DNA of 63,097 nucleotides, counting the filler, from Folioceros fuciformis (Eukaryota), in assembly GCA_049999805.1 (NCBI GenBank). It is 31 parts of 31 records of this genome, joined end to end, with 100 filler letters (N's around TTAATTAATTAA, not from the genome) between each part and the next. Parts side by side here need not be neighbours in the genome. Positions count along the whole stretch, not along the records: positions 1,415 to 6,026 come from JBNGIO010000053.1; 30 more parts are not named here. One strand, 5' to 3'. This document shows positions 1,415 through 22,763 of the stretch, in pieces. Made by a program: the position numbers and the translations under genes. Numbering within the stretch: position 1 is the stretch's first letter; every line of letters starts with the position of its first letter. The notes beneath the pieces are model-generated. The model saw nothing but the letters and a program-made list of their open reading frames with translations. It did no database searches and had not been told where the DNA came from.

Positions 1415-1514
1415 CCCTAACCCTAACCCTAACCCTAACCCTAACCCTAACCCTAACCCTAACCCTAACCCTAACCCTAACCCTAAACCCTAAACCCTAA
1501 CCCTAACCCCTAAA
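1415..1514 (+). repeat. Telomeric array (CCCTAA)n with degenerate proximal units
   Basis: 11 perfect CCCTAA units at the contig start, then CCCTAAA x2, CCCTAA x2 and CCCCTAAA. Confidence 0.95.
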
Positions 1515-4500
1515 ATAGTATATTAATATATACGAAAAAAGAGAGTATATTTAGTAGGTAAAGAGTTAATTTAGACTACTTCTAAAACTAAGTAATTCTA
1601 GTTAATACTACTTAATAGCTTTATTACTAGTAAACTATATAATTAAGCTAGTTAAAGGTATACTTAATCTATTATAATATATTAACCGTACTTTTAGAGC
1701 TATTTCTAATAACTAATTTATCTATTACTATATTATATACTTTAGTAATAGTAGAGAGTTTTTTAGTTAAGATATAAATATCTTCGAGTATTCTTAAGTA
1801 TAAAGTAGAAAACTAGTACTATACCTTATCTAGGTATTTTTAGATAAGCTATACTAGATTAAGTAACTTAAGAAGTAGAAAAAAGCTTTATATACTTATA
1901 GATATAAGCTACTATTATAGCTAGATAATTAAGGTTAACTATAAGAAAGTAAGACTATTTTAATAATCTACTCTACTAACTATATAAGAAGATTTACTTA
2001 TATAATAACTAGATAACTTAGCTTTATATATCTATTCTAATCTTTAATTAATTTACTTAAGTTAAATAATAGTCTTATATAATTAATATACTATAATACG
2101 ACTTTATAGTCTATTTTAGCTAGCTTAGTTTTTTTTTTAATTATATTTTACTCTATTTTAAGAAATAATATAGTTAGATTTAATATAGCTTTATCTATTT
2201 ATAATAGTTATAATATCTCTATTCGTTTCTAGCTATTAGTAATAATAGATACGTACTACTTAACTTAGATTATATTATAGCTATAGAAAATTAATCTAAT
2301 AAACTCTTATATATTATATCTTAAAGATAGTAGCTTTTAATACTAGTATTATAACTTTTCTTAATCTTAAAGTAAAACTTTATTATTACGTAAAGTATCT
2401 TAGTTTCTATAGATAACTTTAATCTACTCTAACTCTTATAGTAGATAGTTACTAATACCTTTATACTCTAAATAGTTATAAGCTATAGTATACTTTATTA
2501 TTATTTCTTAATAGTTATCTTACTAACTTTTTTAGTTATTTCTAATACCCGAAAAATTACGCTAGTATTAGTATTCTAGAGAAAATAATTAGGCTAAAGA
2601 AACTAAAGTATTCTAGTTACTAAGTTAGTTATAAATATAGAGTTCTTCTTTTTTAACTCTATACTAAAGGTATAAGCTTTAGGTATAATAGTTAGTATCT
2701 CTAATAATAATACTAGCGTTAATACTAATATAAGTATTAGATTATAAAGTAAATTACCTAAGTACTTTCTAAGATACTAGTAAGCTATCTAATAGTACTT
2801 AAGAATACTTTAGTTATTTATTTTAAATATTTTCTTTTACTTTAAAAACCTATCTTCTACTAGTTTTAGTATAGTAGTAAAAAGTATAATAAAACTAAAA
2901 TTAATAGCTTTATTTCTTAGTAATAGTTATTTTACTTTATATTCTACTTTAATAGTAGTATACTTAAGGCTTCTAGGTCTAGCTATAGTAGCTAATACTA
3001 ATAGAGCTAAATTAACTAATTAGATAACTTACTTATAGAAAAGCTTTAACTTATAAGAGCCTAGTATATACTTAATTTAGTATACGAGTATAGTAGTACT
3101 TAGTATACTAATCTAATTATCTCTACTTATAGTCTTTACTCTAGTATATCTTATAGTAGCCTAAAGTACTAAGAACTATATTATATTTTAAGAGTAGAAT
3201 AACCTACTAGTTATCTAGTTATATTAGAGATAGTTTTTATATAGGTCTTATATAAAGTTATATTATATTCTAGAGATAATAATAGAAGTAGTATTATCTT
3301 TAGATAGAAATAGTAGTAGAATTAGTTTATACTATCTATAAAGTATTAAAGTATAGAATAGAATATTATTTAAAATATATACTTCTATAAGAATAAATTC
3401 TTAGTTTAGAATTATTACTATACTTACTTTTACTATTCTTCTAATAGCTATAGAGTACTATAGCTACTACTATAACTACTTCTATTTAAAGCGCGGTTAA
3501 GATAATATATTATAAAAGAAATTATCTATAGCTTTTATAGTTTCTTAAGTATCTTAGTAAGAAATTTAGCTATACTACTTAGCTTTTATACTCTTAGCCT
3601 ACCGAGCTTATTAAACTATAGCTTACTATAGTAGCTAGCTATAACTTCTAGCCTATAATAGAAGCTAATAGATAATATATATATTAAGATAAGCTATCTA
3701 TTCTTATACTAGAGCTATTTTATAAGACTAAGGCTTCTAGTACTCTAGAGATTAAGTATAAAAGAATTAATAAATAGCTAACTACTCTATTTAATACTAT
3801 TAATTATTTCTAGTAGTATTAATATAGAGCCTATTAGTAATCTTAGAAAGCTAGTAAAATAATAACTACTAAAATAGTCTAGTATAGATATACCTTCTAC
3901 TAGTATAATATATAGTCTTTAGAAGCTAGTAGTATTAAATTATATATAAATACTATTAATAGCCTACGTAAATAATATAGTAAATAACTCTAGTATACTA
4001 GAAAATACTATTAGGCTAAAAGACTAAAATAAGTAGATATAGTACTATAGCTTTTTAAGAAAGAAATAAATTAACTAGAAGATAAAGCTAAGAATAGTTA
4101 AGAATTTTTAATAATCTTTTTTTAACTTAGAGATCTATATAGAGAAAACTTATTCTATTTAAAATATAAACTCTTTTTTTACTATAGTCTAATTAATATA
4201 TTACTACTTTTAAAAGAAAAACTTAGATAACTTAAAATTAGCTAAAAAGAGTTATTCTTTTAAGTATTATAATAAATACTTCTATCTTATAGTAATATAG
4301 GTAGATAGATTACTATTATAGTTTAGTAGTACTAGAGTAGCTATTATAACTTCTTTAGTAGTAAGTAGATTATCTAGTCTATAGTAAATACTCTATTTAA
4401 TATTAGTATAGCTCTAAAAGTATTTATAGTAAAGAATACTTACTCTATTATACTAGTAGTTTATATTTTCCTATATAATAGTAAAGAGATTATCTATTAA

Positions 4501-6026
4501 GAATACTAGTAGCTATAGAAAGAAAAAGTTACTATATACTAAATAAAAGGCTAGAGAATAAAAAGTAAAATCTTATATACTCTAAAACTTCTAGAGTACT
4601 ATATTATAGTTAGCTAAAAGATAGTATACTAACTTATTATTTAGATTAAATAAATAGCTATTAAAGTAGTTAATATTAATAGTAAGTATATATATTATAG
4701 TTTTAATATTACTAATACTATACTTTTACTCTAGTTTAATTTAAAGCTACTCTAAGCTATTAGTAAAAAGATACTAGTAGTTATAACTTAGATATAGAGT
4801 AGTACTAGTCTCTAGAAGTTTACTATTAATTGTTTTATTATATAGAAAACTACTAGCTTCTATATCTATTTTCTTCTTACTAGAATTAGAATCTTCGTTA
4901 GTTATATAGAGATAGGTCTCTTTTAGTATAAATTATAGGTACTTTATTACCTTAATTTTAATATTTACTTTATAGTTATATATATAGAATACTAGTTAGC
5001 TCTCTATTTAAAATAGATTCTATATATTTTATTATATATACTTAGGCTACTTTTATATAAATACTTTCTAGAAGATTATCTATTTATTAAATATAATTTT
5101 CTATATATATAGGCTATCTAATCTCTATAATAGCTCTATATCTTTACTTAAAAACTCTCTAATTAGAAATATCTTCTTAATATATAAAGTAAAGAAGCGT
5201 ATATAGTAAATTTATAAGATACTTAACTAAGATAATTTCTTATAGTATTTATAATACTTACTTTTAGATATAAACTCTTTAGAAGCCTTTATAATAGAAT
5301 ATATAATAATATACTATAATTCTCTAGTCGCGGCTATAGTTAACTAGAAAGTCTAGTACTTTAAGTTAAATAATAGTTTATAAATATACTTTATATTATA
5401 TAGTACTTACTAGTTTTTTAAACTAATAGTAATATTATTAAAGAACTAGCTTAATAGTTATATAATAGATTAAAGTAGCTATTTTATTATAATAATAAGG
5501 TTAAGATAGAAGATATAGATATACTTATTATTATTTAAAGTAGCTCTTAAATCTATTTTTCTACTTCTAAAGTTAAGTATATATTATCTTTAGAGTATAT
5601 TAATAGCTTATTTACTATTAAAAGATAGATTCTTTATTATAGTAATAAAATTCTATACTTTAAGATTATTAGCTAGTTAATATATATCTATAAATATACT
5701 TTAGTATACCTTTAAACTTATAATTCTCTTTAGTATAATTAATTTTCTATAAGTATTAGTTAGAAGCTATAATAACTTATTTATTATTACTAAAACTATC
5801 TTTATTAGTATTATAGTTCTAGTACTAGATAATAATAGTATTATCTAGTCTATTCTCGTTATTTAATATCTTACTAGTACTATTTTACTCGCGTTTAGAA
5901 TTTTCTACTTTAGAGATAGGTAACGATTCTAGAAATATATTATTAATAGTAATTAGACTAAAGTTAAGAAAATTATTATTAAAATTATTAGAATTTATAT
6001 TTATAAATTATTTATAGGTTATAAAG
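1515..6026. other. RIP-mutated AT-rich subtelomeric DNA (probable ascomycete)
   Basis: Very AT-rich and saturated with TpA. CpA/TpG are almost absent (I saw one TG near 4831) while CpG, CC and GG persist. No ORF of 60 aa or more. Confidence 0.85.
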
Positions 6027-14811: not shown

Positions 14812-15025
14812 TTGGCTTGGCTCGGCTTGGCTTGGCTTGGCTTGGCTTGGCTTGGCTTGGCTTGGCTTGGCTTGGCTTGGCTTTCTCTTCTCTTCTCTTC
14901 TCTTCTCTTCTCTTCTCTTCTCTTCTCTTCTCTTCTCTTCTCTTCTCTTCTCTTCTCTTCTCTTCTCTTCTCTTCTCTTCTCTTCTCTTCTCTTCTCTTC
15001 TCTTCTCTTCTCTTCTCTTCTCTTC
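14812..15025. repeat. Compound microsatellite (TTGGC)n then (CTCTT)n
   Basis: About 14 TTGGC units to ~14882, then CTCTT units to the contig end. Confidence 0.97.
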
Positions 15026-15125: not shown

Positions 15126-15256
15126 CCCTAACCCTAACCCTAACCCTAACCCTAACCCTAACCCTAACCCTAACCCTAACCCTAACCCTAACCCTAACCC
15201 TAACCCTAACCCTAACCCTAACCCTAACCCTAACCCTAACCCTAACCCTAACCCTA
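15126..15256 (+). repeat. Telomeric array (CCCTAA)n
   Basis: About 22 perfect units at the contig start. Confidence 0.96.
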
Positions 15257-16635
15257 CTATAAGCCTTTGGGTGGCTTTTATGCTGGGTCTTGCTTCAACG
15301 CTTGCAGCTGCTATGACATCTGCAGGGATTGAATATGCAAATGCCCAAGGCTCGCAACTAGTAACTATATATTGGTATTAAAATAGAACTACTGTCTCTA
15401 CCGATAGCAAGCTACCCTCCGCTAGTGCTTAAGATAGACTTATTATTACTATAGGTAGAACCTTAATTATCCTATAATAGTATATTATAGCATGCTTAGT
15501 ACTTCTTGCAACTAGCATATTAATTATGTATAAAGATACTTGTAACTCTTCTCCCTAACCCTAACTAATATCTACGCCGAAGCCGGCTAGGCCTGCGCCT
15601 GTAGCTCTAGTAAAACTAGCCGGCGCTTAGCTACCGCTAGCTGCTCCTCGTCTAGTATAAGTAGTAGTATATACTATAGTAGCTTTATACTAAGCTTAGG
15701 AAGTAAATAGATCGTAATATAGCTTTATAGTCTATTATAATATACTATCTCTCCCTCTATAACCTTCTATAGTATCTACTATTTTTATTATACTACCTCT
15801 CTTATAGTTATAACGAGTATAGGCTTTTTATTCGCTCCTATCCAGTTATTATAGACTCTTATTTATATTTCTAGTACTAGGGCTCTTCTAGAAGGTTATC
15901 GAATAACTATTAGAGTTATATAATAGCCTACTATAACTCTATCTTAGTTAGAGTAGCTTTAAGGCAGTAACTAGTATATTTCTAGACTAGGAGTTATTTA
16001 TCCTTCTCTAAGGATTCTATTATACTTCTATACTACTACTCTATTCCTAATAGTAATATAGAATAGAGTAACTCTAAGTAGCTCTACCTAGGCGTTCTTA
16101 TTAATATCTGTTAGGGTTAAGTAGAATATTACTACTAAAACCTTACTATTAAATATCTATATAATTCTATCTTCTCCTAACCTATAAGTCTCTATAATTT
16201 TTTGAATAGATTATCTACACGTTAGGTTTTAAATGCGTCGATTTTTAAGCGTAGGAATAGCGAAGAACACGACTTTGAAGAAACGAAGAATAGGACTTAA
16301 GTATCCGTACATACGCTACTATTTTACTAGCTATAGCGAAGAACAGGACTCCCGTTTATCGTGAATTCATGTAAGTCTCTATATAGAGACTAGGCCTACG
16401 TTATATAGTCTTAGAGATAAGCCTAGTCTAGAAGAAGAATAGTATTATAACTCTATAACTCTAGTATAAGGCTAATAGCCTTTATACTTATATACTATAA
16501 AGGTATAGTATAGATAGTTATATAATATACTTAGTAGAGTACGTAAGTAATAAGAAACTAAGTAAGATATATAAGAAATATATATATAAATCTTATAATT
16601 TAATATTACTAGAATATTATAATTAACTTTATTAT
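15257..16635. other. Subtelomere with partial-to-strong RIP signature
   Basis: The first ~110 nt keep TG/CA; the rest is TpA-rich and CpA/TpG-poor. Internal CCCTAACCCTAA at 15553-15564. Confidence 0.8.
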
Positions 16636-17840: not shown

Positions 17841-19684
17841 CCCCCTCCATCAGATCTTAGGCATTTGATGTGCCTACCTGTCTGCTTCTCAACCATCGCC
17901 TTGAAAGTATGAAAATGAGTGATCACTTCACTTTTTTCTTTCATGAAATAGACCCACACCTTCCTTGTGTGGTCGTCAATGAAGGTCACATAGTACTTGC
18001 AGCCTCCGATTGATGCAGTCTGTGTAGGACCCCATACATCTGAATGCACAACATCCAACACATATCTGCTGACATGTTTGTCATGGGGGAACGCATTCCT
18101 AGGCTGTTTCCCAAGTTGACATGCTTCACATATACCTTGCAGTCCATTTTCTGTAAGCTTGGGTATGCCTGTGACAACCTTCTGATGCTGCATGGACTTC
18201 AACTTCTCCACATTTACATGTCCAATGCGTTTGTGCCACATCTCTAGGTCTGTCACTACCCTTGTACCCTTCGCAAACATGGCTGACTTCAGCTTAGGAA
18301 CCTCCACGTTCAAGGTGAACATCCGTCCAACCTTCTGTCCTTGAGCAATCAGGCGACCGCCTTTCTTGCACTCTTCAACAAAGAGTCCTGCAGGTGTAAA
18401 TCTAACCTGCAGTCCTTGCTCAACCATCTGCCCAACTGACACCAAGTTCTTTGTGATGTTGGGTACGTGAAGAACATCTACCAGGCACTTCACTTTGCCA
18501 TCCTGCATCTTCAGAGGTACAGTTCCTGTATGCACAATTGCATGTGTTGTGTCATCTCCAGTTTCTACATATCCAGGTTTGTCAAGCACTTGCATTTCTT
18601 TGAACCACTCCCCATGGCATGTCATGTGGTTCGAAGCTCCTGAGTCCACATACCACACAATCTCACCATTGTTGGATCCATTAGCAGACACAGAGTTAAG
18701 CATATGCTGCATGACAAACAAGTTTTCTGAGTCATTCTGACTGCTGCTAGAGGCATAATTGTTCTGCTGCCTCCTGTTGCCTTGATTTCTCCTTGGACAG
18801 TCTCTTTCGAAGTGGTCTAACCTACCACAAGTCCAGCAACCACTATTGTCTGCATTTGCATCATTTTGTTGTTGATTTCCACGTCCTCTTTGACTCCCCC
18901 AGCCTCGAGAATTTTCTCCTCTTCCACGTGTACTCTTGTACTGGGACTCCTGATTCTGTTGTTGATTTTGGTAGGGATTCCGACCTCTACCACCTCTTTG
19001 CCCTCTGCCACCTTGGGCTCTACCTCTGCCTCTGCCAGAGTAGAAGGCTTGCTCAGAGTTTTCCTTAGGCTTAGAGGATGATTCCTCGCCTTGGTTTTTC
19101 TCCTCTATGATCAACATAGAAATCAGGTCTGAGAAATTGGGAATGTTTTCCCGAGTCTATATGGAAGTCTTGAACTGCTTGTAGGCATGTGTTAACCCGC
19201 GCAAGCAAACTTCGACCTTGTCATCATCTTCCACACTGACACCAATGGACGCAAGGGATTCCACTATCCCTTTGATCTTTAACGCGTACTCATTGATTGA
19301 TAAGTTCTTCTTCATAACTGTGTTGAAGTCATTCTTCAACTGCAGTTTTCTCGCCTTCGTGTTAGTCTCATAGAGTTTTACCAACTCATCCCATGCTTCT
19401 TTGGGCGACTCTGCATCCTGTATGTGCCCAATCATGGTGTCATGAATGCTGATTGACAGCCAATACATGACCTTCCGAGATCCTTGACTCCAATCCTTCA
19501 GCGCCTTAATCTGCTTCGCTGTTGCATTCCGTTCAAGTACTACAGGGGGTTTTTCATGCTCCCCCTCAATGTAGTCCCAATAACCCTTTCCCATAAGAAA
19601 GTTTGTAAAACGAAACTTCCAGGCATGGAAGTTGTTTTTGTCCAGCTTCTCCTGTACGATCTGGTTAATACTGTCACTGGCCAT
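17841..19684 (-). mobile_element. Copia gag-pol (gag, zinc knuckle, protease, integrase N-half) with one in-frame stop
   Basis: LDKNNFHAWKFRFTNFLMGKGYW, UBN2-type gag, CWTCGRLDHFERDC, WYVDSGASNHM, WHKRIGH..CEAC and HSDVWGP..FIDD..LRSDGG. A TAG at 19157-19159 is in frame with both ORFs. Confidence 0.96.
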
Positions 19685-20235
19685 TCTTGCCACCACTCAA
19701 GGTTGACACTCAATCCTTTCTTGAGTACTCACACCTGATAAATGTCTGAAAGAACCAGACTGCTTCTGACTGGAGTTTTACTCACAAGACCTTAAGTCTC
19801 TTCTTCCTAAGAGCAATCTGGTGCGGAATCATGCTGCCTTGCGTGAACCAGATTGTCTCATGCTCCGTGTCCTTACAGACTCTTGACTGTCTGCCCACAA
19901 AGCTCCCGTGAGATTTCCTGTCAATTCCTTCCCTGCTGCCAAGCTAGGGTTAGCACACTTTCTTGCAGCTGCTGAGGCTATTGCAGCTGTTGCCTCCACT
20001 TGTCAGCCCTTCCACAGAGCTCTGGGGATCAACAGCTAGTCCAGTAAGCTGACAGGGCCTTGTCGCCCTTCTCCTCACTTCCTGCACACACCGATATGAG
20101 AGTTAGCTGCCGGGACGCTTGCTGCCGATCTCCCTCCAAGCTGCTCCAACTTCTCGTAGCTGCTCTAGCTTCTGGTGTGCACTCTTGCTGCCTCTTGCAG
20201 CACCTCCTACGCCGATCTTGCACCGCCTGCACCGG

Positions 20236-20294
20236 GCTCTGATACCATGTCAATAGGATCGACTCCAGTCTACGTGCAAGTGTAGGAGAGGAGA
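20236..20294 (-). mobile_element. PBS (20236-20247) and 3' end of the 5' LTR of the above Copia
   Basis: The minus strand reads ...TTGACA TGGTATCAGAGC. Confidence 0.9.
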
Positions 20295-20394: not shown

Positions 20395-20520
20395 CCCTAA
20401 CCCTAACCCTAACCCTAACCCTAACCCTAACCCTAACCCTAACCCTAACCCTAACCCTAACCCTAACCCTAACCCTAACCCTAACCCTAACCCTAACCCT
20501 AACCCTAACCCTAACCCTAA
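20395..20520 (+). repeat. Telomeric array (CCCTAA)n
   Basis: 21 perfect units at the contig start. Confidence 0.96.
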
Positions 20521-22763
20521 AGCTCTTCTAGTAGCTTAGAGATATATAATTTGTAAGGCCTTAATATAAGATTAGATAATAAGTAGATATATACTATAAT
20601 AGGCCTTTGTATAGCTACTAGAACTTAAGAGTACTATTCTTTAAGGTAAGTTATAATCTATACTAGTAGAATAGCAATACTATATACTTTATAGATAATT
20701 ACTCGAATTTTTATAACGTACTAAAATAGATATATAAAAGCCTCTATAGTATTACTACTATAATCTCTATAAACTATTCTATTCTATATAACCTCTTTTT
20801 TAAGAGGTTAGCCTTATTAGATACTTCTTAGAAAGTTATAAACTATAATATAATACGAAATAAAAATATATTATCTTATTAAATAACTTTCTTTTTTAAC
20901 TACTTTATTAGTATAATATCTATTAATTTTATATACTAGTTTCTTTAGAGTTACTTAGTTATATATATATTAGAGTTATATACTTACGCTATTATATACT
21001 AAGCTAGACCCTATAGAGTCTAGGTTCTAATCTACTCTACTTCTTTTTCTACTTAAACTTACTACGCCTATTATATATTATATTAACTCTTTTTAATACT
21101 TCTATATAACTAGATAGTAGAGTACGTAGTTTTTCTACTATATAAGATACTACTATCTAGTACGACTTTAGCTACTATACCTCTAATATAGACTATAAAA
21201 GGCTATTCTACTTCTAAGTAGCCTAGTTAAACTAGACTATACTAAAAAGAAGCTTAGAGTAGTTAATCTTTAATAAGTAGAGCTAATACTACTCTATATT
21301 TATTACTAACTCTCTTCTATCTATAATTAGCTTAGTATAGAATATACTCTCTAGATATATACTTAAAGAGGATAGTTAGTAGTAACTTATCTATATAGCT
21401 TAAGCCCTTACTATAGATATAGAGGCCGTACCTCTCTTAGCCTAAAATACTAGTATTATCTCTAGTTTAGATAAGGAACCCTCTAGTTTTCTACTTATAT
21501 ATAAGTATAAGCTACCTTCTACGCTTATATCTCTAGAAAGTAGCTAGAGAAGACTATCTATACCTCTAGTAGGATTAAAGTAAGAGAAATTTTCTAAGCT
21601 ATTCTTTCTCTTACTATAGTCTTCTAAGTCTCTTCTAGCCTACGTTACTATAGTTACTAACTATAACTATTAGGTAGAATAGAAGTATACTAGTAGGTAA
21701 GAGAAGGCTACTACTAGAAAATAAATTAGTATTAGCCTCTATAAGCTAATAGATACTATAAGTATAGAAGAAAAGATATTCTATAGTATAATTATACTAG
21801 CTAATAAAGTAGAGATTACCTAGGTAATTAAATAACCTATAGGCTAGAATAGTAACTTCTATACTATAACTAGCTTACCTTATAAGATAGCTTATAGTCT
21901 TCTAGCTTTAGCTTAGGCTATAGGTAGCTAGTATACCTAGTATAACGCTACTATATTTCTATAGTCTTAAAGAGAGTATAGTACCTCTATACTTATATAT
22001 ACTTCTATAATAGATAGTACTATATCTACCTAGGTTACCTATCTACTCTCTAGTACTAATAGTCTCTCTATTACTAATAGCTGCGATACCGACTTTAAGT
22101 AAGCCTAGTATATAAGCTATTACTATAAGTAGCGTCTTACTACTACTATAATTAAATATTACTAGGCTATAGCCTTACTAGGCCGCGTATATACTACTAA
22201 AATTAAGTAGCTATAGAATAAGAATATAGGTATACTTTTTCCTTTTCTTAAGACTAAGATAATTAATAGCTTACTATACTTAGTTTACCTATATACTTTA
22301 CTCTAGGAAAGAAAGGTTTTAGTTAGATAATTAACCTACGTAACTTATTAGTATAGTATAACTAAGACTCTTAGTTAGAGTAGTTTCTATCTTATACCTC
22401 CTAATAATTACTTTAACTACTAGGTAGAGAAGAAGGTCTTAGCCTATAAGTAGCTAATCTAGCTATAGCTAGTAAAGTAAGTAAGCCTAGAGGCCTATAC
22501 TATAAGCTAGATATTAGATAGGTAGCTTAGAGTATAAGCTATATAGAGTAGCTCTATCTAAAGTAATAGTAGACTTTTTATTAAAGAAAAGGGGCTATCT
22601 ATAGTATATAAGGTTAAAGAGATTATAGATAGTATAGATAAGAAGAGTAATAGTAGCGTAGAAAATACTATATAGATACTAATAGGCTCTATATATCGGT
22701 TTTAATAACTATTACTATTAGAATTATTTAAACTATAGTAGGTATCTATCTATAGTAAATATA
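20521..22763. other. RIP-mutated subtelomeric DNA
   Basis: TpA-saturated, with only a few TG (e.g. near 20552, 20608, 22082) and CpG retained. Confidence 0.85.

What the first reader, a model, noticed from the sequence alone, without database searches (positions are those of the whole stretch)
1415..6026. Telomere-capped, RIP-saturated chromosome end inside a plant assembly: probable hidden ascomycete
Seen: a (CCCTAA)n array at the contig edge followed by 4.5 kb with extreme TpA excess, almost no CpA/TpG, and retained CpG. Established: RIP in Pezizomycotina converts CpA to TpA in duplicated DNA and most filamentous ascomycetes use TTAGGG telomeres, whereas typical land plants use TTTAGGG and lose CpG/CHG through methylation. 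Inference: this is a chromosome end of a RIP-competent endophyte or contaminant. The less likely but far more striking alternative is a RIP-like mutator in the plant itself.
Basis: partly seen in the sequence, partly recalled or inferred. Interest (0 to 1): 0.75.

Follow-up and report, generated by a model that had tools for sequence, protein, structure and literature searches.

The report
Fungal chromosome end in hornwort assembly
This 4.6-kb contig is a telomere-capped stretch of DNA almost stripped of CA and TG letter pairs, and it is most likely the mutation-scrambled chromosome tip of a mould sequenced along with a hornwort-like plant, so an assembly contaminant rather than new plant biology.

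Summary
Observation confirmed. Contig G000:C53 starts with about 15 CCCTAA units. Its remaining 4.5 kb holds 1 CA/TG against 363 expected. CpG is halved, so not fully 'retained'. All 5 CCCTAA-capped contigs in the assembly are RIP-like. All 7 contig-terminal plant-type CCCTAAA arrays sit on ordinary DNA (p=0.0013). A paralog pair shows the RIP spectrum directly: CpA 39/42 and CpT 14/203 mutated. The sister telomeric contig in this window (C56) carries a broken ascomycete Fig1-like gene. It is 76.5% identical to an intact metagenome protein, and 29 of 31 differences need only C>T/G>A. The one named relative is from Lindgomyces (Pleosporales). The host is hornwort-like. Against a simple contaminant: read depth equals or exceeds that of the plant LEAFY gene, no intact fungal gene or rDNA was found, and C53 itself has no identified homolog. 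Best reading: an abundant co-sequenced Pleosporales-like fungus whose gene-bearing contigs were filtered out, while roughly 290 RIP-erased contigs likely escaped. This is ordinary fungal biology and a useful assembly-cleaning lesson.

The parts
1415..1509 (+). (CCCTAA)n telomere array, about 15.5 units, at the contig's first base (fungal TTAGGG type)
   Evidence: contig boundary; one of five such contigs in G000
1510..6026 (.). RIP-saturated subtelomeric DNA (GC 0.20, 1 CA/TG in 4.5 kb). Ancestral sequence not identified; a relative lies across its whole length in a run of another study
2415..3300 (+). possible erased coding remnant (purine phase and stop pattern like the known RIP-broken gene on C7101); inferred, limits approximate, no homolog found
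   Evidence: no Pfam hit
15126..15256 (+). (CCCTAA)n telomere array of sister contig G000:C56, 21.8 units
15256..15651 (+). RIP-broken 3' part of an ascomycete Fig1-like membrane-protein gene, starting right at the telomere; 7 stops, all at Gln or Trp codons of the intact homolog
15652..16635 (.). rest of C56: partly RIP-mutated repeat shared with 18 other contigs, all RIP-saturated
20395..20520 (+). (CCCTAA)n telomere array of sister contig G000:C59, 21 units
20521..22763 (.). RIP-saturated subtelomere of C59; its last 47 bases overlap exactly with contig C2698, which holds a more heavily mutated copy of the C56 segment

Best explanation
The contig is a TTAGGG-capped, CpA-depleted sequence that is most likely a chromosome end of a RIP-active filamentous ascomycete, probably in or near the Pleosporales, co-sequenced with a hornwort-like plant. 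Mechanism (established for ascomycetes, inferred here for C53): during the fungus's sexual cycle RIP recognises duplicated DNA and turns C into T, mostly at CpA, then CpG and CpC. Repeated rounds on a duplicated subtelomeric segment removed nearly every CA/TG, cut GC to 20% and filled the old reading frames with TAA/TAG. Telomerase-made repeats hold no CA/TG and cap the end. Shown: the composition, the directional spectrum on a paralog pair, and a RIP-broken ascomycete gene on a sister telomeric contig. Inferred: that C53 belongs to the same fungus, and that the fungus's gene-bearing contigs were removed by similarity-based cleaning while RIP-erased contigs, which no longer match databases, stayed in.
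For: 1 CA/TG against 363 expected. 5 of 5 CCCTAA-capped contigs are RIP-like; 0 of 7 contig-terminal CCCTAAA arrays are (Fisher p=0.0013). C56 vs C2698: 119 of 123 differences are transitions, 109 one way and 10 the other; CpA 39/42, CpG 34/50, CpC 22/61, CpT 14/203. C56 frame vs intact protein P0006: 76.5% over 132 aa, 29 of 31 differences reachable by C>T/G>A alone and 1 of 31 by the reverse; C2698 76 of 79. The one named member of that family is Lindgomyces ingoldianus P0012, 73.6% to P0006 over 91 aa. 18 of 18 contigs related to C56 are RIP-saturated, none host-like. No purine/pyrimidine-level homology between 25 RIP contigs and 149 host loci beyond one chance match. Run X3 of another study holds 85-95% relatives over 30 of 30 bins, 416 transitions to 37 transversions, but nothing laid on the host LEAFY locus. 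0.3% neutral change would already give about 5 new CA/TG (P(<=1)=0.028), so the DNA has hardly drifted since RIP last acted.
Against: Depth does not mark it as minor: 8.3-12.3 in X1 and 5.6-10.6 in X2, against 3.9-10 and 4.2-7.2 on the plant LEAFY locus (the tool warns these are not copy numbers). No fungal marker was found in G000: chitin synthase 0 matches, Zn2Cys6 0 of 6 candidates with a silent control, 4 5.8S loci with none read as fungal but only 39 of 1722 candidates scored, one conventional actin locus, no intact copy of the Fig1-like gene. The filtering step is therefore assumed, not seen. C53 has no identified homolog: 0 Pfam families in 6 frames and no paralog in G000. The Fig1 label is weak (best E 0.0048; Atlas 0.89). 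The genus-level hint rests on one 123-aa protein that does not overlap the part held by C56.
Confidence: 0.92

Rival explanations
1. The RIP-scarred, TTAGGG-capped pieces are fungus-derived accessory chromosomes or inserts now carried in the hornwort's own nucleus, with no whole fungus in the sample.
For: Depth at or slightly above the plant single-copy gene in all three runs of the sample. No intact fungal gene or rDNA found in G000.
Against: Almost no drift since RIP saturation. Ends keep the six-base repeat while host ends use the seven-base repeat. None of the 27 RIP contigs examined joins host-like DNA. Close relatives occur in a run that lacks the host LEAFY locus (that blank can be false). 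The public contigs of X1 and X2 total 323 and 290 Mb against an 87-Mb assembly, leaving room for removed microbial genomes.
Confidence: 0.04
2. The plant itself has a RIP-like mutator that converts CpA to TpA in some of its own duplicated, telomere-proximal DNA.
For: Plant-level depth. The host has an unusual expansion of cytosine-methyltransferase domains, many in Gypsy elements.
Against: Host repeats show the opposite pattern, CpA above expectation and CpG depleted. The substrate index is bimodal with nothing between 0.29 and 0.96 among all loci over 900 bases. The RIP contigs have no host progenitor, and the one identifiable gene is ascomycete. Host telomere flanks are unmutated. None of the 20 of 52 methyltransferase hits that I translated looked like RID by eye (recalled motifs, no formal test).
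Confidence: 0.02
3. The contig is an artefact of bisulfite- or enzyme-converted reads entering the assembly.
For: Run X6 of the same sample shows almost only C>T/G>A differences (377 of 378 on C53, 113 of 114 on LEAFY), as a converted library would.
Against: Conversion removes C in all contexts on one strand. C53 keeps 820 CT/AG and loses only CA/TG, on both strands. Runs X1 and X2 hold it with 0 differences on their long pieces.
Confidence: 0.005

Closest known systems
RIP-degraded repeats and large RIP-affected regions of Dothideomycetes (e.g. subtelomeric repeat X26 of Stagonospora/Parastagonospora nodorum; PMC3017866, PMC7882544, passages read)
   Same: CpA>TpA dominance, GC near 20-22%, product index about 1.6-1.8, loss of BLAST-recognisable homology, duplicated host genes among the targets, subtelomeric position.
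   Different: More complete saturation here (substrate index 0.002 against 0.2-0.3 in the example table of PMC7882544). The element in C53 is unidentified; no RecQ helicase or transposon match was obtained. It lies in a plant assembly.
Filamentous-ascomycete (CCCTAA/TTAGGG)n telomeres and truncation healed by new telomere addition (Pyricularia oryzae; PMC8381367, passages read)
   Same: Six-base array at the contig end. On C56 the array abuts the middle of a gene (residue 94 of the homolog), as expected for a healed break (inferred).
   Different: No MoTeR-like element was looked for or seen; arrays here are short-read stubs of 15-22 units.
Fig1/SUR7-like ascomycete membrane proteins (PF12351); Lindgomyces ingoldianus BDR25DRAFT_363675
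   Same: Intact homologs of the C56 gene give weak Fig1 matches, one more distant homolog carries PF12351, and the Atlas neighbours are all eukaryotic, mostly Ascomycota.
   Different: Below the Pfam cut-off for the one member whose score was shown; all three copies in G000 are broken by 7, 15 and 20 stops. This concerns C56, C2698 and C7101, not C53.

Membership tests
RIP-affected DNA (Pezizomycotina) | RIP product index >1.15, substrate index <=0.75, composite >0 | tested here: met
   1.76, 0.002, 1.76; thresholds from PMC7882544
RIP-affected DNA (Pezizomycotina) | directional C>T/G>A transitions between duplicated copies, CpA preferred | tested here: met
   Met on the sister pair C56/C2698. 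For C53, only cross-run relatives: 416 transitions to 37 transversions
RIP-affected DNA (Pezizomycotina) | the target is duplicated in its genome (>=400 bp, >=80% identity in Neurospora) | tested here: inconclusive
   C53 has no second copy in G000; up to 6 contigs per site in run X3; C56 family is multi-copy
RIP-affected DNA (Pezizomycotina) | a RID/Masc1-family methyltransferase and a sexual cycle in the same organism | not testable with these tools
   The fungus's genes are not in G000. 52 PF00145 hits, 20 translated, none read as RID by eye
Ascomycete chromosome end | terminal (CCCTAA)n array in outward orientation, distinct from the host's repeat | tested here: met
   host ends are (CCCTAAA)n on non-RIP DNA
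Ascomycete chromosome end | sequence homology or physical link to fungal genes | tested here: inconclusive
   Met for C56 and C59+C2698; not obtained for C53
Co-sequenced contaminant or endophyte | depth different from host single-copy DNA | tested here: not met
   8.3-12.3 vs 3.9-10 (X1), 5.6-10.6 vs 4.2-7.2 (X2), one host locus only
Co-sequenced contaminant or endophyte | fungal ITS and core genes present in the data | tested here: inconclusive
   Not found in the assembly; the sequencing runs were not searched for them
Co-sequenced contaminant or endophyte | no long-read or Hi-C link to host DNA | not testable with these tools
   Only contigs of short-read runs could be laid; no joints listed
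Fig1 family (PF12351), for the C56 gene | Pfam match above the curated cut-off | tested here: not met
   P0002 13.5 bits against 25.3; 5 of 6 members at E<=0.1, best 0.0048. It is Fig1-like only

The most novel reading that the evidence does not exclude
The RIP-scarred contigs are the only fungus-type DNA in the sample: fungus-derived, TTAGGG-capped accessory chromosomes carried at one copy per hornwort genome, which would mean whole-chromosome transfer from an ascomycete into a land plant. A milder and far likelier novelty (about 0.3) is that an undescribed Lindgomycetaceae-like fungus is a regular, abundant endophyte of this hornwort.
Probability: 0.04. Interest if true: 0.85.

Novelty: new member of a known kind. 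Interest (0 to 1): 0.17.

Why it matters
Biologically it is a textbook RIP-scarred fungal chromosome end. The practical point: RIP makes fungal DNA unrecognisable to similarity search (PMC3017866), so it can survive decontamination of plant assemblies. Here 2 of 50 contigs sampled by number were of this class, which extrapolates to about 290 of 7240 (95% interval 35-990). A simple CA/TG index separates them cleanly. Left in, they would distort repeat, telomere and methylation statistics. They also point to an abundant, unnamed Pleosporales-like associate of a hornwort. One full-text search for RIP with 'plant genome assembly' and 'contamination' returned 0 papers; that single search does not show the point is unpublished.

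Tried and rejected
Pfam scans of six frames read with X at stops: 0 families in 18 frames of C53, C56 and C59 and in 12 frames of C3370 and C6937; composition filters make these weak negatives. DNA search of G000 with C53 found only itself. Purine/pyrimidine 32-mer comparison: one match of C53 to two related host elements, rejected as chance because the flanks agree at only 0.54-0.56. P0003 (Mycena repeat protein, E 1.6e-6) was dropped as a likely spurious repetitive hit; it gave no tblastn match to the RIP contigs. Two scans of JGI metagenome contigs for an intact locus of the Fig1-like gene found none (468 and 307 pattern hits, 0 confirmed). P0012 does not align to the C56 frame because it covers the part that C56 lacks; it aligns to C7101 at 37.8%, E 1.6e-6. 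A genome-wide count of RIP contigs was not obtained; the figure is an extrapolation from 50 contigs. The possible coding frame of C53 was searched only against Pfam, so its identity stays open. Two look-ups of earlier findings returned nothing. Bisulfite artefact and plant methylation decay were considered and rejected (see rivals). No paper supplements were consulted.

Full report
Observation. The window is a string of 31 short contigs separated by 100-base spacers. The finding is one whole contig, 1415-6026, which is G000:C53 in an assembly of 87.2 Mb and 7240 contigs. It begins with 15.5 CCCTAA units. The rest has GC 0.20, TpA/ApT 1.74 and substrate index 0.002, and a single CA/TG where 1000 shuffles give 363.5 +/- 13.7. 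These values pass the stringent RIP cut-offs of PMC7882544 (passages) by a wide margin. CpG is at half its expected count (23 against 46 +/- 6), so 'retained CpG' holds only relative to CpA. Two more contigs of the window, at 15126 (C56) and 20395 (C59), have the same cap and signature; the other 28 have substrate index 1.00-1.51.

Two telomere classes. A search of G000 for eight CCCTAA units hit five contigs, C47, C53, C56, C59 and C4743, always at an end. All five are RIP-like. Four CCCTAAA units hit 18 contigs. I examined 13 of the 18, including all 7 with a terminal array; all 13 have ordinary composition, substrate index 0.97-1.46. Five of five against zero of seven gives p=0.0013. The host therefore uses the plant repeat, and the six-base ends belong with the RIP class.

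The host. The single LEAFY locus scores best against PDB 9FWY and 9G19 (217 and 214 bits, against 180 and 158 for the next entries). A preprint identifies these as the hornwort Nothoceros aenigmaticus LFY (10.64898/2026.04.13.717636, passages). Some Osmunda ferns also have this LFY type (PMC6588583, passages); an 87-Mb assembly fits a hornwort better (my own knowledge of fern genome sizes). I call the host hornwort-like.

RIP shown on a pair. C59 ends with a 47-base exact overlap to contig C2698, which holds a second copy of the C56 segment. Over 1060 aligned columns there are 123 differences, 119 of them transitions, 109 from C/G in C56 to T/A in C2698 and 10 the other way. Mutated fractions by context are CpA 39/42, CpG 34/50, CpC 22/61 and CpT 14/203. 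This is the CpA-dominated spectrum described for RIP (PMC3017866, passages). A DNA search with C56 hit 18 other contigs; 18 of 18 are RIP-saturated, so no unmutated host progenitor turned up. A purine/pyrimidine comparison, which is blind to RIP, of 25 RIP contigs (46 kb) with 149 host loci (369 kb) gave one chance match, while three host control contigs gave 16-149 hits to their best partner.

An ascomycete gene on the sister contig. The least mutated frame of C56, read with X at stops, found 3 proteins among 1.84 billion; one was dropped as a spurious repeat protein. The family grew to 8 proteins. The closest, P0006 from a JGI metagenome, is 76.5% identical over 132 residues. 29 of 31 differences need only C>T or G>A changes, and all 7 stops fall on Gln or Trp. 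The C2698 copy gives 76 of 79 and the more distant C7101 copy 81 of 112. The only named member is a Lindgomyces ingoldianus protein (Dothideomycetes, Pleosporales), 95.6% identical to P0005 over 90 residues and 73.6% to P0006 over 91. The family is Fig1-like on weak evidence: best Pfam E 0.0048, one distant member with PF12351, Atlas score 0.89 with Ascomycota neighbours (a lead only). G000 holds three copies, all broken. On C56 the telomere starts in mid-gene, which suggests a healed break like those described in Pyricularia (PMC8381367, passages; inference).

C53 itself. It has no Pfam match in six frames and no paralog in G000. A purine-phase and stop pattern near 2415-3300 resembles that of the known broken gene on C7101, so it may be erased coding DNA; this is unproven. 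Runs X1 and X2 of one sample hold it exactly. Run X3, of another species label and study, holds mostly 85-95% relatives over 30 of 30 bins, with 416 transitions and 37 transversions, 289 of the transitions towards the less mutated state. X3 laid nothing on the host LEAFY locus (the tool warns such a blank can be false). A simulation shows that 0.3% neutral substitution would add about 5 CA/TG, with P(<=1)=0.028, so the sequence has barely drifted since RIP last acted on it. That fits a living RIP-active fungus better than an old insert in a plant. Its assignment to the same fungus as C56 rests on the shared cap and signature.

Results against the simple reading. Depth is not low: pieces on C53 have depth 8.3-12.3 in X1 and 5.6-10.6 in X2, against 3.9-10 and 4.2-7.2 on the LEAFY locus. 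This is one host locus, and the tool warns that these figures are not copy numbers. No fungal marker was found in G000: chitin synthase none; Zn2Cys6 none of 6 candidates, with a control that could not ring; four 5.8S loci, three of one host type and one angiosperm-like by my recall, with 39 of 1722 candidates scored; one conventional actin locus, plant-like by my recall, among 17 actin-family matches of which I translated 6. The simplest account is a heavily colonised sample whose fungal gene contigs were removed by similarity screening, leaving only what RIP had made unrecognisable. Every RIP contig seen is 1.0-5.4 kb, the 20 profiled in 300-base bins are mutated end to end, and the public contig sets of X1 and X2 are 323 and 290 Mb. 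The screening step is inferred, not observed.

Scale. 2 of 50 contigs picked by number were RIP-like, which extrapolates to about 290 contigs, 95% interval 35-990. The substrate index of all loci over 900 bases is bimodal, with nothing between 0.29 and 0.96.

Rivals. A plant RIP-like mutator is unlikely: host repeats show the opposite dinucleotide pattern, host telomere flanks are unmutated, and the one identifiable target is a fungal gene. None of 20 of the 52 methyltransferase hits that I translated looked like RID, by eye only. A converted-library artefact is excluded: X6 behaves like a bisulfite-type library, but C53 keeps its CT/AG and is exact in X1 and X2. Fungus-derived chromosomes inside the plant nucleus remain formally open because of the depth and the missing fungal genes; I give this 0.04.

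Verdict. This is a RIP-saturated chromosome end of a likely Pleosporales-like fungus left in a hornwort-like assembly (confidence 0.92), a new member of a known kind, interest 0.17. Papers: passages read of PMC7882544, PMC3017866, PMC8381367, PMC5890265, PMC6588583 and 10.64898/2026.04.13.717636; search listings only; two searches returned 0 papers; no supplements read.

Noticed in passing
L146:2209-9366 + (G000:C5196); also L147:979-6486 - (C5615), L148:3774-8003 - (C6012): Host Ty3/Gypsy polyproteins with a C5 DNA-methyltransferase domain between protease and reverse transcriptase, and in two of three a C-terminal PHD finger; one frame is open for 2386 aa. The PF00145 search gave 52 matches, many of this kind. 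A Gypsy-borne Dnmt3 is described in the alga Klebsormidium (PMC5890265, passages). One search for Anthoceros + Dnmt3 + retrotransposon + Klebsormidium returned 0 papers. This may be more interesting than the finding itself; the DNMT class and activity were not tested.
   Followed up: partly
L014 (G000:C6555:2126-5281): An rDNA contig whose 5.8S and spacers differ from the three host-type copies and look angiosperm-like (recalled resemblance, not tested): probably a second, unrelated contaminant.
   Followed up: no
run X6 laid on window:1515-6026 and L057: Almost only C>T/G>A differences on both loci, as in a bisulfite- or enzyme-converted library of the same sample. It could give the methylation state of the RIP contigs.
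   Followed up: partly
L070 (G000:C6937), about 1800-1860 +: A frame in a RIP contig reads like a RIP-erased Gag zinc knuckle, suggesting fungal LTR-retrotransposon remnants; seen by eye, no Pfam support. A shared 150-200 base repeat links many RIP contigs.
   Followed up: no
window 14812-15025: Perfect (TTGGC)14 followed by (TTCTC)28 at the end of host-type contig C55; ordinary microsatellites at an assembly break.
   Followed up: no
window 17841-20294: 5' part of a host Copia-like element on the minus strand (gag, protease and start of integrase region, judged by eye); ordinary.
   Followed up: no
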